A stretch of 64,000 nucleotides of DNA, taken from NCBI GenBank assembly GCA_934271465.1, contig CAKQRQ010000004.1:21232-85231 (forward strand), given 5' to 3'. Below, piece after piece: positions 14,871-17,141 of the stretch (the first letter of the stretch is position 1; each line of letters starts with the position of its first letter). The notes under the pieces were generated by a model that was not told the origin of the DNA, made no database searches, and saw only the letters and a program-made list of their open reading frames with translations. The translations under genes were made by a program, and so were the position numbers. This DNA comes from an uncultured Alphaproteobacteria bacterium (GTDB lineage: Bacteria > Pseudomonadota > Alphaproteobacteria > RF32 > CAG-239).

Positions 14871-17141
14871 ATGGTGAAAAGTATCACGCTGACGGCGTCA
14901 ATGCGGAGCAACTTAAACAGCCTCAAAAACATCTCCAAACAAATGAACACGACGCAGGAAAGGCTTTCGACAGGAAAGAAAGTCAATTCCGCGATAGATA
15001 ATGCGTCGAGTTATTATCAAGCCAGAGCCTTAACAAACAGAGCCTCGGATTTAGATGCCTTATTAGATGCCATGGGACAGGGGATACAAACAATCCAAGC
15101 GGCAACGCAAGGTTTAACAAGCGGGGTGTCATTCCTCGAACAAGCCTCGGCCGTTGCAAACGAGGCCTTGAGCCAAATCGGCAATACCGGCGGCACAGCT
15201 TCACTCAAACCCATTGAAGACTTTATCGCCGATGGTTATACCGTCGTCGGCACAGAAGCTGAACTTAACGCCGCCGTAGCCACAGCCGGCGCAAAAATCG
15301 TGCTATCAGGCGACATTACCCTAACAAGCACGCTCCGTATCACAGCAGAGAATGTGACATTGGACGGCAACGGACACAAAATTTCTTACACAGCAAAAGA
15401 ATCAGGAAAGTCAGCTATTGAGATAGATGGCCGTCTTGAACTTTTACAAAGTCTGACTGAACCGAATACTCCCGTCACAGATGAATTCGTTACCCTAAGT
15501 GACAAAGAGCGTATATCTCTAAACCCAGATGACTCGAATACACCTATTCGAAACCAAAGAGTGACTATCAATAACTTAAAGATTGAAGCAACTGGAGAAA
15601 AAATCGCAGGTATCAGAGTTTTGAACTACGGCAAACTTACCTTAGATAACACCTTTGGCATCACAGTCAGCGGTAAAGGGGCTCAAAAACTTTTCTGCGG
15701 CAATGCGGATGTTATGGATTTATATGACGGACAAACGAATACAAAAGCCATTCTCAACCAAATCGGAGAAGCCGGACTGGCGGCCAGCGCGACTAATCAA
15801 TTTTATGTCGGCGATAAAAACGGAGCCTTTGGTCAAGGCAAGTGGTATCTCCCGTCCATTGGCGAATGGATGGAATTTTATGGCACAAATATAGCAGAGA
15901 TAACTGGTAACGATAGCGGCAATATTGTTGAGCCTATAGAGGGTTCAGATACAGGCGCTGAAACAGAAACTGAAAACAAGGTTATCGGTTCAACCGGAGC
16001 TATGGGAAGAGTTATGGCAGCCATCAACAATGCCTTAAATATCCTTGCAGAGAAAGGTGTTGACGCAGAGGCTTTAAGCGGATGGTATTGGTCGTCTTCT
16101 GAATATGATGCAGACAATGCTTGGAAAATCGATGCAAGTTTGGGAAGCGGTTATCGAGATACCTTCCCAAAATACAAAGGTCTTATGGCTGCCTCGACAC
16201 AACCATCTGTGCGCTGTGCCCAGCTTCTAAAAGATTGCTTTGATCCATCTCCTTACGGAACGGCATGGTGGCAATATGGACCTATGGCCGGCTTGGTGAT
16301 GTATGAGGACAAAACTTTTAGTCCGGCAAAGAATTACGACGGGAGCAAAAAGATCGTCGGCGTTGTTGCTAATGTTTCGGAAGACGGCCGCGATGTAACA
16401 ATTATAAATCTGAAAGATTTGACATTCGACGGTAACAACTTTAATCCTGAAAATCCCTATGGCGAAGCAAATTCAGATGTCCGCTGGTGCACCAGTGACA
16501 AAAAATCTGAAGACATCTCAGGAGTTCAGAATTTTAACGAAGATCAATTTCTTACTGCTATTAACTCCACACATGGAATTCAAAGTATAGACCTTACAAA
16601 CACATCTTTTCCCAGCACTTCCGACACCCCCAACACCCCAGCCGGACAAATAGACACGTCGCTCATTGACCAATACAACAAAGCCTTTGAGCAGTATGAT
16701 AGATTAATTAATGATTCGTCCTATCAAGGCGTCAACCTTTTGAAGAATGAAAAGCTTGATGTTGTGTTCAACGAAACCCGAAACAACAAACTAACAGTCC
16801 AAGGAAAGGATATGAGCTCCGCCGCGTTAGGACTGACCAAAGCTGAATGGACAACGCAGGGCGATATTGCCAACTCAATTCAAGAATTGTTGGCTGCTGT
16901 CAACAAAATCCGCACGTTCCAATCTGAACTCGGGAATAATTACAGCATAATCCAGACGCGCCAAAACTTTACCGAGGCTTTGACAGATGTTCTTGAAACA
17001 GGCGCGGATAACCTTGTGCTCGCTGATATGAATGAGGAATCCGCAAATTACTTGGCGCTCCAAACCCGCCAACAACTCGCCACCAGCGCGCTTTCACTTG
17101 CGACCAATTCCGCCCAGAGCGTCCTTGCGTTGTTTGGGTAA
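14871..17141 (+). CDS. Flagellin with a central insertion of about 490 aa (giant flagellin)
   Basis: GGAGG lies 7 nt upstream of the ATG. The N-terminus SMRSNLNSLKNISKQMNTTQERLSTGKKVNSAIDNAS and the C-terminus ELGNNYSIIQTRQNF...LALQTRQQLATSALSLATNSAQSVLALFG are flagellin D0/D1 helices. Residues about 106-594 are unrelated to flagellin. Confidence 0.85.
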   Translation: MVKSITLTASMRSNLNSLKNISKQMNTTQERLSTGKKVNSAIDNASSYYQARALTNRASDLDALLDAMGQGIQTIQAATQGLTSGVSFLEQASAVANEALSQIGNTGGTASLKPIEDFIADGYTVVGTEAELNAAVATAGAKIVLSGDITLTSTLRITAENVTLDGNGHKISYTAKESGKSAIEIDGRLELLQSLTEPNTPVTDEFVTLSDKERISLNPDDSNTPIRNQRVTINNLKIEATGEKIAGIRVLNYGKLTLDNTFGITVSGKGAQKLFCGNADVMDLYDGQTNTKAILNQIGEAGLAASATNQFYVGDKNGAFGQGKWYLPSIGEWMEFYGTNIAEITGNDSGNIVEPIEGSDTGAETETENKVIGSTGAMGRVMAAINNALNILAEKGVDAEALSGWYWSSSEYDADNAWKIDASLGSGYRDTFPKYKGLMAASTQPSVRCAQLLKDCFDPSPYGTAWWQYGPMAGLVMYEDKTFSPAKNYDGSKKIVGVVANVSEDGRDVTIINLKDLTFDGNNFNPENPYGEANSDVRWCTSDKKSEDISGVQNFNEDQFLTAINSTHGIQSIDLTNTSFPSTSDTPNTPAGQIDTSLIDQYNKAFEQYDRLINDSSYQGVNLLKNEKLDVVFNETRNNKLTVQGKDMSSAALGLTKAEWTTQGDIANSIQELLAAVNKIRTFQSELGNNYSIIQTRQNFTEALTDVLETGADNLVLADMNEESANYLALQTRQQLATSALSLATNSAQSVLALFG

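What the first reader, a model, noticed from the sequence alone, without database searches (positions are those of the whole stretch)
14871..17141. Giant flagellin: canonical D0/D1 termini around a non-flagellin insertion of about 490 aa
Residues 1 to about 105 and about 595-756 are typical flagellin helices (RLSTGKKVNSAIDNAS; LGNNYSIIQTRQNF; SVLALFG). The central 65 percent or so has no flagellin character. It splits into a segment with right-handed beta-helix-like sequence periodicity (AKIVLSGDITLTSTLRITAENVTLDGNGHKISY...VTINNLKIEATGEKIAGIRVLNYGKLTLDNTFGITVSG) and the DUF1566-like module. Functionalised hypervariable domains in flagellins, both enzymatic and giant, are known but rare. No HExxH protease motif is present here, so an adhesive or lectin-like role is more plausible. 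The gene is isolated from other flagellar genes: no fliD, fliS or flaG nearby. It is wedged on the opposite strand between two peptidoglycan-recycling genes, an ldcA-like gene and anmK.
Basis: partly seen in the sequence, partly recalled or inferred. Interest (0 to 1): 0.75.

Follow-up and report, generated by a model that had tools for sequence, protein, structure and literature searches.

The report
Large flagellin displaying adhesin-like domain cassette
This gene from an uncultured alphaproteobacterium encodes a real flagellar filament protein that carries a conserved three-domain, adhesin-like module in an unusual loop of its core, and the same module also occurs on ordinary secreted proteins, so the flagellum probably doubles as a sticky surface, though this has not been shown.

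Summary
The ORF at 14871-17141 (+, 756 aa) is real. It has complete flagellin D0/D1 termini, closest to the Caulobacter FljK type, and no HExxH motif. The 490-aa insert folds confidently into three domains: a short beta-solenoid (Pfam Pectate_lyase_5, similar to the L. reuteri SRRP adhesin), a distant DUF1566/Lcl_C (C-type-lectin-like) domain, and a small beta-rich domain with no known relative.

- It is not "giant", because the published definition is over 1000 aa.
- It is not rare. More than 100 metagenomic flagellins share the cassette, and 500-790 aa is the normal length in this clade.
- FliL and FliM lie 44 kb downstream in the same window.

New findings:
- The insert sits in the ND1a/ND1b loop, not at the canonical site after the D1 beta-hairpin. 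This holds across a large clade.
- The cassette, whole or in part, also occurs on Sec-secreted Cys-rich proteins, one of them in this window (45791-48388).
- A paralogue keeps a near-identical core but has a 54%-identical insert.
- Related genomes also carry three or four conventional flagellins and FlbT.

An adhesive or lectin-like display role is the best inference but is untested. I rate it a new variant of a known kind, of moderate interest.

The parts
14664..14870 (+). Structured upstream leader or promoter region of the flagellin gene
   Evidence: A long-range stem encloses two hairpins; RNA MFE is -76.9 kcal/mol, z -3.45. The last 136 nt are 136/136 identical to the paralogue locus L001, although the adjacent codons differ synonymously. 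Both hairpins are kept with compensatory changes in the distant locus L008. The leader is absent from the small flagellins of L008 and from L009-L011. There is no Rfam hit.
14871..17141 (+). Flagellin CDS, 756 aa, 81 kDa, pI 4.5
   Evidence: ORF; Pfam Flagellin_N and Flagellin_C; AF2 model with mean pLDDT 79.8.
14871..15185 (+). ND0 and ND1a helices (aa 1-105)
   Evidence: Aligns to FljK 5-106. AF2 helices 9-33 and 45-105. Mean identity across the family is 65%.
15186..15233 (+). Flexible linker into the insert (aa 106-121)
   Evidence: pLDDT is below 50 at 104-111. Family identity is 30%.
15234..15704 (+). Short right-handed beta-solenoid, Pectate_lyase_5 type (aa 122-278)
   Evidence: Pfam PF20585, E 1.8e-7, 31.8 bits against a cutoff of 24.3. 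AF2 shows a regular strand ladder with pLDDT over 90. Foldseek hits the L. reuteri SRRP binding region 5nxk_B, E 0.011, 169 columns. The GNGH motif is invariant.
15468..15551 (+). Lineage-specific disordered acidic loop within the solenoid (aa 200-227)
   Evidence: 98% gaps in 78 homologues. pLDDT is below 50.
15705..16250 (+). DUF1566/Lcl_C-like (C-type-lectin-like) domain (aa 279-460)
   Evidence: Lcl_C sub-threshold here, but 48 of 73 family members hit it. The profile hits 8q4e at E 4.8e-4. The WYLPS..E and YWSSSE motifs are nearly invariant. BFVD top hits are phage DUF1566/Fib_succ proteins, E 2e-3 to 4e-2. pLDDT is over 95.
15903..15995 (+). Lineage-specific disordered acidic loop within the DUF1566-like domain (aa 345-375)
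   Evidence: 77% gaps in homologues. Low pLDDT.
16275..16598 (+). Third insert domain, small and beta-rich, no known family (aa 469-576)
   Evidence: pLDDT about 90-98. It is predicted as a rigid unit with the DUF1566-like domain (pTM 0.84). No Pfam hit. No significant PDB or BFVD fold match. It always follows the DUF1566-like domain in homologues.
16599..16655 (+). Flexible linker back to D1 (aa 577-595)
   Evidence: pLDDT is below 50 at 577-592. Family identity is 18%.
16656..17138 (+). ND1b helix, D1 beta-hairpin, CD1 and CD0 (aa 596-756)
   Evidence: Aligns as one stretch to FljK 113-272. AF2 gives H596-615, E628-632, E640-644, H663-717 and H722-755. Family identity is 61%.
45791..48388 (-). 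Secreted Cys-rich 865-aa protein carrying the same DUF1566-like plus third-domain module, and a second divergent DUF1566-like domain
   Evidence: BLASTP against flagellin aa 284-567 gives 46% identity, E 5e-73. Signal peptide MKKLFFVLSFLAFVPAVQAQ. Weak Lcl_C hit at aa 718-816.
61109..63728 (+). Flagellar motor gene cluster (FliL, FliM, DUF6468, MgtE_N-like) as genomic context
   Evidence: Pfam FliL E 9e-8; FliM E 2.7e-63 plus FliMN_C; DUF6468 E 1.8e-19.

Best explanation
The gene encodes a working flagellar filament subunit of an uncultured, probably gut-dwelling and anaerobic alphaproteobacterium.

Shown: the D0/D1 core is complete and under strong purifying selection. A 490-aa cassette is spliced into the loop between helices ND1a and ND1b. 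Short, poorly conserved, low-confidence linkers connect it to the core. It folds into an SRRP-like beta-solenoid, a DUF1566 (C-type-lectin-like) domain and a small beta-rich domain. The same cassette, or its two distal domains, is also carried by Sec-secreted Cys-rich proteins in the same and related genomes.

Inferred: the flagellar type III system exports the protein like any flagellin, and it polymerises through D0/D1. From the known flagellin structure, the ND1a/ND1b loop lies at the same end of D1 as the canonical D2 exit, so each subunit should project the cassette onto the filament surface. The cassette would act as an autonomous extracellular binding module, most likely for a polysaccharide or glycoconjugate such as mucus, dietary or microbial glycans. 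That would make the filament, or a segment of a multi-flagellin filament, a multivalent adhesin. Because related genomes hold three or four conventional flagellins and FlbT, this is probably a specialised subunit and not the sole one.
For: Flagellin identity: Pfam N and C domains. The insert-deleted construct aligns collinearly with the whole of FljK, 4-271 to 5-272, E 4.8e-20. Flagellar motor genes are in the window.

Selection: compared with the paralogue P0012, the N- and C-terminal core differs at 19/103 and 55/160 codons synonymously but at only 1 and 3 non-synonymously. The DUF1566-like N-terminal half is as conserved across 78 homologues (63%) as D0/D1 (61-65%), which is unlike a hypervariable region.

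Folded cassette: pLDDT 85.6 and pTM 0.84 for aa 278-594; the beta-solenoid has pLDDT over 90.

Adhesin-type homologies: Pectate_lyase_5 above its cutoff; Foldseek hit to the L. reuteri SRRP binding region 5nxk, which binds epithelium, polygalacturonic acid and chondroitin sulfate (PMC5866549); Lcl_C in 48 of 73 members; profile hit to Lcl-CTD 8q4e, a glycosaminoglycan-binding adhesin head (PMC11162425).

Autonomy of the module: the secreted protein P0063 shares all three domains with flagellin P0035 at 62% identity over 499 aa. The window's own 865-aa secreted protein shares two domains at 46% identity.

No enzyme signature: no HExxH, and no lyase or hydrolase Pfam family even at E<=10.

Habitat: one family locus comes from a Hadza gut metagenome.
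Against: No binding or localisation data exist, and the ligand is unknown. The DUF1566 assignment is distant: sub-threshold for this protein, with a Foldseek E of 0.8 to 8q4e. All insert domains are acidic, pI 4.1-4.8 apart from one solenoid segment. The basic-surface glycosaminoglycan-binding mechanism of Lcl therefore cannot apply directly. Lcl-CTD works as a trimer, which a filament-embedded monomer may not reproduce. Related genomes have three or four conventional flagellins nearby, so incorporation of the large one into filaments is unproven, and the rest of this genome was not available. Steric feasibility of a 490-aa insert leaving the ND1a/ND1b loop in an assembled filament was reasoned from known structures and was not modelled.
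Confidence: 0.5

Rival explanations
1. Structural sheath. The cassette is an ordinary outer domain, only larger. Its role would be mechanical: it forms a lattice around the filament that stabilises supercoiling and helps motility in viscous mucus, with no specific ligand.
For: Outer domains of several flagellins dimerise or form sheaths that modulate motility in viscous media (PMC8931119, PMC10256154). Large flagellins give thicker filaments (PMC6248924). Most representatives of this clade carry large inserts of many unrelated kinds, which suggests a general benefit of having some outer layer.
Against: The same cassette occurs on non-flagellar Sec-secreted proteins, where a filament-lattice role is meaningless. 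The linkers to D1 are low-confidence and poorly conserved, which suggests a tethered and not a packed arrangement. Both recognisable domains belong to adhesin or lectin families.
Confidence: 0.2
2. Surface masking and antigenic diversification. The bulky insert next to the end of ND1a hides the conserved D1 surface from host receptors, antibodies or flagellotropic phages. Paralogues with the same core but diverged inserts would provide alternative surface types.
For: Two paralogues in one genome have near-identical cores, 54%-identical inserts and an identical 136-nt leader. The insertion point immediately follows the ND1a segment that corresponds to the TLR5 hot spot in Salmonella FliC (my own knowledge; position). 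The window protein also has extra lineage-specific disordered acidic loops.
Against: The insert is well conserved across the family, with parts as conserved as D0/D1. That is the opposite of diversifying selection. No DGR or phase-variation repeat was found. This rival does not explain the cassette on secreted proteins.
Confidence: 0.1
3. Flagellar-export passenger. The protein uses flagellin termini only as a type III export signal and is released as a soluble or tip-associated secreted protein, without polymerising. Campylobacter FlaC is an example of this kind.
For: The gene lies away from other flagellar genes. Conventional flagellins exist in related genomes. The leader differs from that of the small flagellins in L008.
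Against: The full D0 and D1 set is intact, including ND1b, the hairpin, CD1 and CD0, and it is under strong purifying selection. An export signal alone would not need that. The small flagellins of L008 share the same core family and the same insertion topology.
Confidence: 0.1
4. Enzymatic flagellin. The beta-solenoid would be an active polysaccharide lyase or hydrolase, and DUF1566 its carbohydrate-binding module. This would be analogous to flagellinolysin but would act on glycans.
For: The pectate-lyase superfamily fold. Enzymatic flagellins exist (PMC7643111; Eckhard 2017, cited in PMC7018530).
Against: Only the 'adhesive' PF20585 family is hit, with no catalytic PL or GH family at E<=10. 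The solenoid is short, about 130 ordered residues. The closest structure, SRRP-BR, is a non-catalytic adhesin (PMC5866549).
Confidence: 0.07

Closest known systems
Caulobacter crescentus FljK/L/M/N flagellins (PDB 6xl0, 8uxj, 9cef)
   Same: They have the closest D0/D1 core. The insert-deleted protein aligns end to end with FljK. Both are alphaproteobacterial, occur in multi-flagellin genomes, and have FlbT in related loci.
   Different: FljK has no outer domain at all (273 aa). Here 490 aa are spliced in at about FljK residue 105-112.
Giant flagellins of Bermanella marisrubri and Oleibacter marinus (PMC6248924)
   Same: Both are flagellins with very large surface inserts that are expected to thicken the filament.
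   Different: Those are over 1000 aa, from gammaproteobacteria, and their inserts arose by internal duplication of a different region. This one is 756 aa with adhesin-type domains.
Flagellinolysin and other proteolytic flagellins (PMC7643111)
   Same: The concept is the same: a functional, conserved domain displayed in thousands of copies on the filament.
   Different: Those carry an HExxH metallopeptidase. Here there is no HExxH and no enzyme family hit.
Pectate-lyase-like flagellin outer-domain cluster #35 (PMC11532411)
   Same: A beta-helix of the pectate-lyase superfamily serves as a flagellin outer domain.
   Different: That cluster is known only from AlphaFold clustering. I could not check whether it includes this family, the DUF1566 domain or the ND1a/ND1b insertion site.
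Lactobacillus reuteri SRRP binding region (PDB 5nxk/5ny0; PMC5866549) and Pfam PF20585
   Same: The first insert domain hits PF20585 above its cutoff, and 5nxk is the only non-flagellin PDB fold match. Both come from gut bacteria.
   Different: SRRP is a Gram-positive, aSec-exported, cell-wall-anchored fibrillar adhesin with a longer solenoid. The Foldseek E is only 0.011.
Legionella pneumophila Lcl C-terminal domain / DUF1566 (PDB 8q4e; PMC11162425)
   Same: Distant sequence homology, with the shared WxLP and YWSS core motifs. The fold is an extracellular C-type-lectin-like domain.
   Different: Lcl-CTD is a trimer on a collagen stalk and binds sulfated glycosaminoglycans through a basic surface. 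This domain is acidic, monomeric within a flagellin, and followed by an extra beta-rich domain.

Membership tests
Bacterial flagellin (FliC/FljK type) | N-terminal helical region (PF00669) and C-terminal helical region (PF00700) above the gathering scores | tested here: met
   46.9 bits against 26.6, and 35.3 bits against 23.
Bacterial flagellin (FliC/FljK type) | A complete D0/D1 set (ND0, ND1a, ND1b, beta-hairpin, CD1, CD0) collinear with a solved filament subunit | tested here: met
   The insert-deleted construct aligns 4-271 to FljK 5-272 in one stretch, E 4.8e-20. AF2 secondary structure matches.
Bacterial flagellin (FliC/FljK type) | Incorporation into a flagellar filament | not testable with these tools
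   This needs filament proteomics or cryo-EM. Motor genes are present in the window.
Giant flagellins (Thomson et al. 2018) | Length greater than 1000 aa | tested here: not met
   756 aa. The definition is in PMC6248924.
Flagellinolysin / proteolytic flagellins | HExxH metallopeptidase domain in the variable region | tested here: not met
   No HExxH and no peptidase Pfam hit.
Pectate_lyase_5 (PF20585) putative adhesive beta-solenoid | Score above the Pfam gathering threshold | tested here: met
   26.5 bits for the whole protein and 31.8 bits for the isolated segment, against 24.3. 27 of 73 family members hit at E<=1e-3.
Pectate_lyase_5 (PF20585) putative adhesive beta-solenoid | Right-handed parallel beta-helix fold resembling SRRP-BR | tested here: inconclusive
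   AF2 shows a regular strand ladder with high pLDDT. The Foldseek hit to 5nxk_B has E 0.011 and TM 0.24 on the target. That is suggestive but not strong.
DUF1566 / Lcl_C (PF07603) | Score above the Pfam gathering threshold (34.9 bits) | tested here: not met
   17.7-19.2 bits for this protein. Across the family, 48 of 73 members reach E<=1e-3, with a best value of 9.2e-9.
DUF1566 / Lcl_C (PF07603) | Profile-level or fold-level similarity to a solved DUF1566 domain | tested here: inconclusive
   The family profile hits 8q4e at E 4.8e-4 over 40 residues. Foldseek gives 8q4e at E 0.82. The top BFVD hits are DUF1566/Fib_succ phage proteins at E 2e-3 to 4e-2.
Lcl-type glycosaminoglycan-binding adhesin | Positively charged external surface that binds sulfated glycosaminoglycans; trimeric head | tested here: not met
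   The domain segments have pI 4.07 and 4.81. The oligomeric state cannot be tested here. The features are defined in PMC11162425.
DGR (diversity-generating retroelement) target protein | A template/variable repeat pair and a nearby reverse transcriptase | tested here: not met
   Only ordinary paralogous similarity of 75-87% to the 865-aa gene, with no near-identical repeat. No RT was found among the scanned ORFs.
Canonical outer-domain flagellins (FliC, FlaA and similar) | Variable region inserted after ND1b and the D1 beta-hairpin, between ND1 and CD1 | tested here: not met
   Here ND1b and the hairpin follow the insert. In C. jejuni FlaA, FliC and Azotobacter flagellin, the first 171-198 residues align collinearly across the splice point. 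In S. meliloti FlaA only CD1-CD0 aligns at the C-terminus.

The most novel reading that the evidence does not exclude
A large clade of FljK-like, mostly alphaproteobacterial flagellins may use the ND1a/ND1b loop as its outer-domain insertion site, where other flagellins use the canonical position after the hairpin. In that case the site would act as a plug-and-play display socket. Complete adhesin cassettes (beta-solenoid, DUF1566 and a previously unseen small domain) would be exchanged between the flagellin and Sec-secreted surface proteins of the same genomes. The cell would then present the same binding specificity both on its surface and along its flagellum. I found no solved filament structure or paper describing this topology or this exchange.
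Probability: 0.35. Interest if true: 0.65.

Novelty: new variant of a known kind. Interest (0 to 1): 0.5.

Why it matters
Flagellin outer domains are the least understood part of the flagellum, and few have an assigned function. This family gives an unusually clear hint. The same conserved module appears on a motility filament and on ordinary secreted proteins, which argues for an autonomous extracellular function, probably binding, in uncultured gut alphaproteobacteria.

The insertion site also matters. It shows that the D1 fold tolerates large insertions at a second position. That is relevant for flagellin engineering (display scaffolds and vaccine adjuvants), for automated definition of outer domains, and for interpreting filament cryo-EM maps from this clade.

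If the large subunit co-assembles with the small flagellins, it would be a natural case of functional specialisation within a multi-flagellin filament.

Tried and rejected
1. The second 756-aa ORF at 23083-25353 is not a second copy. It is a U32 peptidase, and the equal length is a coincidence.
3. Foldseek with the whole model was swamped by flagellin cores. Remodelling aa 278-594 alone gave a good model but no significant PDB match.
4. Circular-permutation idea. In the C-terminal domain of the 865-aa protein, the 'GxVxYxD...GIIxxxxDDG' strand segment precedes the WYLP core. In the flagellin it follows the core. Scanning native and permuted sequences against Pfam Lcl_C gave 19.0 against 19.2 bits, so the test is uninformative because the HMM does not cover that segment.
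5. No DGR targeting of the DUF1566 domain: no TR/VR pair and no RT.
6. No sigma-54 promoter: there is no match upstream of the gene, and window-wide counts are at chance level. The sigma-70 and terminator scans are also at chance level.
7. Rfam found nothing in the window.
8. The hairpin leader is not a family-wide element. It is absent from L009-L011 and from the small flagellins of L008.
9. Cluster-member look-ups gave no useful taxonomic names. FtsH homologues are named only 'Alphaproteobacteria bacterium' MAG.
10. Literature searches for flagellin with DUF1566, and for the ND1a/ND1b insertion topology, found nothing relevant.
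Full report
OBSERVATION. The ORF 14871-17141 (+) is present exactly as described: 756 aa with an ATG start. Pfam finds Flagellin_N at aa 12-99 (E 3.9e-12) and Flagellin_C at aa 675-755 (E 1.5e-8), and between them Pectate_lyase_5 (PF20585, 'putative pectate lyase-like adhesive domain') at aa 126-242, above its gathering score. 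NCBIfam places the termini in the long alphaproteobacterial flagellin subfamilies PRK12688 and PRK14708. The best solved relatives are the Caulobacter crescentus flagellins FljK/L/M/N, which match only aa 4-105 and 598-755. There is no HExxH motif. The Lcl_C/DUF1566 match is only 17.7-19 bits for this protein, against a gathering score of 34.9.

ANATOMY. An AlphaFold2 model built on 79 homologues has mean pLDDT 79.8.
- Helices at 9-33 and 45-105 form ND0 and ND1a.
- A low-confidence linker covers aa 104-111.
- A regular beta-strand ladder at aa 122-276 is interrupted by a disordered loop at aa 200-227.
- An alpha/beta domain spans aa 279-460, with a disordered loop at aa 345-375.
- A beta-rich domain spans aa 469-576, followed by a low-confidence linker at aa 577-592.
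- Then come helix 596-615, strands 628-632 and 640-644, and helices 663-717 and 722-755.
Modelling aa 278-594 alone gave pLDDT 85.6 and pTM 0.84, so the two distal domains are predicted as one rigid unit. The two disordered loops are specific to this protein: 98% and 77% of homologues have gaps there. All insert domains are acidic except one solenoid segment.

WHAT THE DOMAINS RESEMBLE. With the whole model, the only non-flagellin PDB fold hit is the beta-solenoid binding region of the Lactobacillus reuteri serine-rich repeat adhesin (5nxk_B, E 0.011). That protein binds epithelial cells, polygalacturonic acid and chondroitin sulfate (PMC5866549). For the two distal domains no PDB hit is significant. 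The Legionella Lcl C-terminal domain 8q4e ranks second at E 0.8. The best BFVD hits are phage proteins annotated as DUF1566 or 'Fibrobacter succinogenes major paralogous domain', at E 2e-3 to 4e-2. At family level the DUF1566 assignment is sounder. 48 of 73 homologues hit Lcl_C at E<=1e-3, with a best value of 9e-9, and 27 of 73 hit Pectate_lyase_5. A profile of the family hits the 8q4e sequence at E 4.8e-4. The nearly invariant motifs WYLPSxGE and YWSSSE are typical of the DUF1566 core (the motif recognition is my own knowledge). DUF1566 in Lcl is a C-type-lectin-like fold that binds sulfated glycosaminoglycans through a basic surface of a trimer (PMC11162425). The acidic character of the domain here argues against that particular mechanism. 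The third domain (aa 469-576) has no Pfam, PDB or BFVD relative.

A FAMILY, NOT A ONE-OFF. A search with the insert alone found 168 proteins. Most are 650-780-aa flagellins with the same architecture, 31-57% identical over the entire insert. They are essentially unannotated proteins from MAGs and metagenomes, with 'flagellin [bacterium]' as the only name. Across 78 of them, the N-terminal half of the DUF1566-like domain is as conserved (63% mean identity to the window protein) as D0/D1 (61-65%). The linkers are poorly conserved, at 18-30%. This does not behave like a hypervariable region.

Its core is almost identical in protein sequence but 86-93% identical in DNA. There are 19/103 and 55/160 synonymous codon differences against 1 and 3 non-synonymous ones. 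Its insert is 54% identical. That pattern fits long-standing purifying selection on two functional copies. Recent gene conversion would not produce it.

THE CASSETTE IS SHARED WITH SECRETED PROTEINS. About a third of the hits are not flagellins. P0014, P0015 and P0021 have a signal peptide, Cys-rich repeats and one or two copies of the DUF1566-like plus third-domain module. P0063 (563 aa, with a signal peptide) carries all three domains, 62% identical over 499 residues to flagellin P0035. The window itself encodes such a protein at 45791-48388 (-). It is 865 aa, has a signal peptide, and is 46% identical to flagellin aa 284-567 (E 5e-73). A module that works on both a Sec-exported scaffold and a flagellin has an autonomous extracellular function. 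This is the strongest argument for a binding role over a purely filament-structural one.

NON-CANONICAL INSERTION SITE. Deleting aa 109-589 gives a 272-aa protein that aligns in a single stretch with the whole of FljK (4-271 to 5-272, E 4.8e-20). The splice point falls at about FljK residue 105-112. The segment after the insert, LIDQYNKAFEQYDRLINDSSYQGVNLL followed by a beta-hairpin, corresponds to helix ND1b and the D1 hairpin. In Salmonella FliC the equivalent 'IQAEITQRLNEIDRVSGQTQFNGVKVL' lies at about residues 104-135, before the hairpin and before D2 (my knowledge of Samatey 2001 and Yonekura 2003).

In canonical outer-domain flagellins, the N-terminal 171-198 residues align collinearly across the splice point: C. 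jejuni FlaA 10-198, FliC 15-171 and Azotobacter flagellin 14-187. In S. meliloti FlaA only CD1-CD0 aligns at the C-terminus (313-394). The ND1b-hairpin peptide alone finds its weak best match at residues 111-170 of E. coli FliC (E 0.13). So the insert sits in the ND1a/ND1b loop, not after the hairpin. From the known FliC structure, that loop lies at the same end of D1 as the D1-D2 junction, so an insert there should still reach the surface. This last step is inference and was not modelled.

The topology is a clade trait. The small flagellins (374 and 379 aa) in locus L008 carry their roughly 110-aa variable part at the same place. A search of 1.84 billion representatives with aa 590-756 gave 3705 hits, 333 of them at E<=1e-30. 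In 149 of the top 150 (142-786 aa, about 119 of them at least 400 aa), the ND1b-hairpin-CD1-CD0 unit matches as a block ending within two residues of the C-terminus. Of 80 long representatives, 12 carry Lcl_C and 10 carry Pectate_lyase_5, and the other inserts have no Pfam match. I found no paper describing this topology, and no solved filament from this clade has an outer domain.

GENOMIC CONTEXT. No flagellar gene lies within about 15 kb on either side. The window does hold FliL, FliM, DUF6468 and an MgtE_N-like protein at 61.1-63.7 kb, and RpoN at 52356-53834. The organism is an uncultured alphaproteobacterium: it has a CcrM-type methylase with a RAMA domain, and its FtsH homologues are named 'Alphaproteobacteria bacterium'. 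It carries anaerobe-type genes, and one family locus comes from a Hadza gut metagenome.

The positions of family members are not syntenic. In two of eight sampled loci, conventional flagellins lie close by: three in L008, and four plus FlbT in L009. These are multi-flagellin bacteria like Caulobacter, so the large flagellin is more likely a specialised subunit than the only one.

SIDE OBSERVATION. The 207 nt upstream of the start codon fold into a long stem enclosing two hairpins (z -3.45). The last 136 nt are identical in the paralogue locus. Both hairpins are kept with compensatory changes in the distant L008 locus. The element is absent from the small flagellins there and from L009-L011. 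It may be a flagellin-specific regulatory leader, and it is not in Rfam.

COMPARISON AND VERDICT. By the published definition this is not a giant flagellin, which means over 1000 aa (PMC6248924). It is not a flagellinolysin, because it has no HExxH. A pectate-lyase-like outer-domain cluster is already listed among 682 AlphaFold clusters (PMC11532411). What appears new is the specific cassette (SRRP-like solenoid, DUF1566 and an unknown small domain), its sharing with Sec-secreted proteins, and the ND1a/ND1b insertion site across a large clade.

The adhesin or lectin reading is the best-supported inference (confidence about 0.5) but is untested. The rivals are a mechanical sheath, surface masking, an export passenger and an enzyme. 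I rate this a new variant of a known kind, with interest 0.5.

Noticed in passing
window 45791-48388 (-): An 865-aa secreted Cys-rich protein with a signal peptide carries the same DUF1566-like plus third-domain module as the flagellin (46% identity, E 5e-73). It also has a second, divergent DUF1566-like domain at its C-terminus, in which the strand segment precedes the core instead of following it.
   Followed up: partly
window 14664-14870 (+): The leader upstream of the flagellin is structured (z -3.45). Its last 136 nt are identical in the paralogue locus, and its hairpins are kept with compensatory changes in the distant locus L008. It is absent from small flagellins and from other family loci, and has no Rfam match. 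Three independent contigs (L001, L002, L008) start 128-136 nt upstream of the ATG, as expected if assemblies break at an exact repeat.
   Followed up: partly
window 61109-63728 (+): A flagellar motor cluster (FliL, FliM, DUF6468 and an MgtE_N-like protein) runs to the end of the window, so the genome encodes a flagellum.
   Followed up: partly
window 57114-60236 (-): A 1040-aa ORF has only a weak, sub-threshold DUF2345 hit (28.1 bits against 30.7) and is otherwise unannotated.
   Followed up: no
window 38107-42219 (-): A 1370-aa AsmA-family protein, probably an envelope lipid-transport bridge.
   Followed up: no
window 9302-11420 (-): Two adjacent, overlapping Ppx/GppA-family paralogues of 332 and 379 aa.
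   Followed up: no
window 11511-12656 (-): A CcrM-type N6-adenine DNA methyltransferase with a C-terminal RAMA domain, which is an alphaproteobacterial marker.
   Followed up: no
window 23083-25353 (+): A second ORF of exactly 756 aa is a U32 peptidase with DUF3656. It is unrelated to the flagellin, and the equal length is a coincidence.
   Followed up: yes
L009 16006-22031 and L008 9049-12417: Related genomes carry tandem arrays of three or four conventional flagellins of about 360-397 aa, with an FlbT gene among them in L009, within 4-10 kb of the large flagellin. The small ones in L008 have their variable region in the same ND1a/ND1b loop.
   Followed up: partly
window 5607-7402: A stretch of about 1.8 kb has no ORF of at least 150 aa on either strand and no Rfam hit. 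A perfect sigma-54-type consensus (TGGCACAAAACTTGC) lies at 6999-7013 (-).
   Followed up: no
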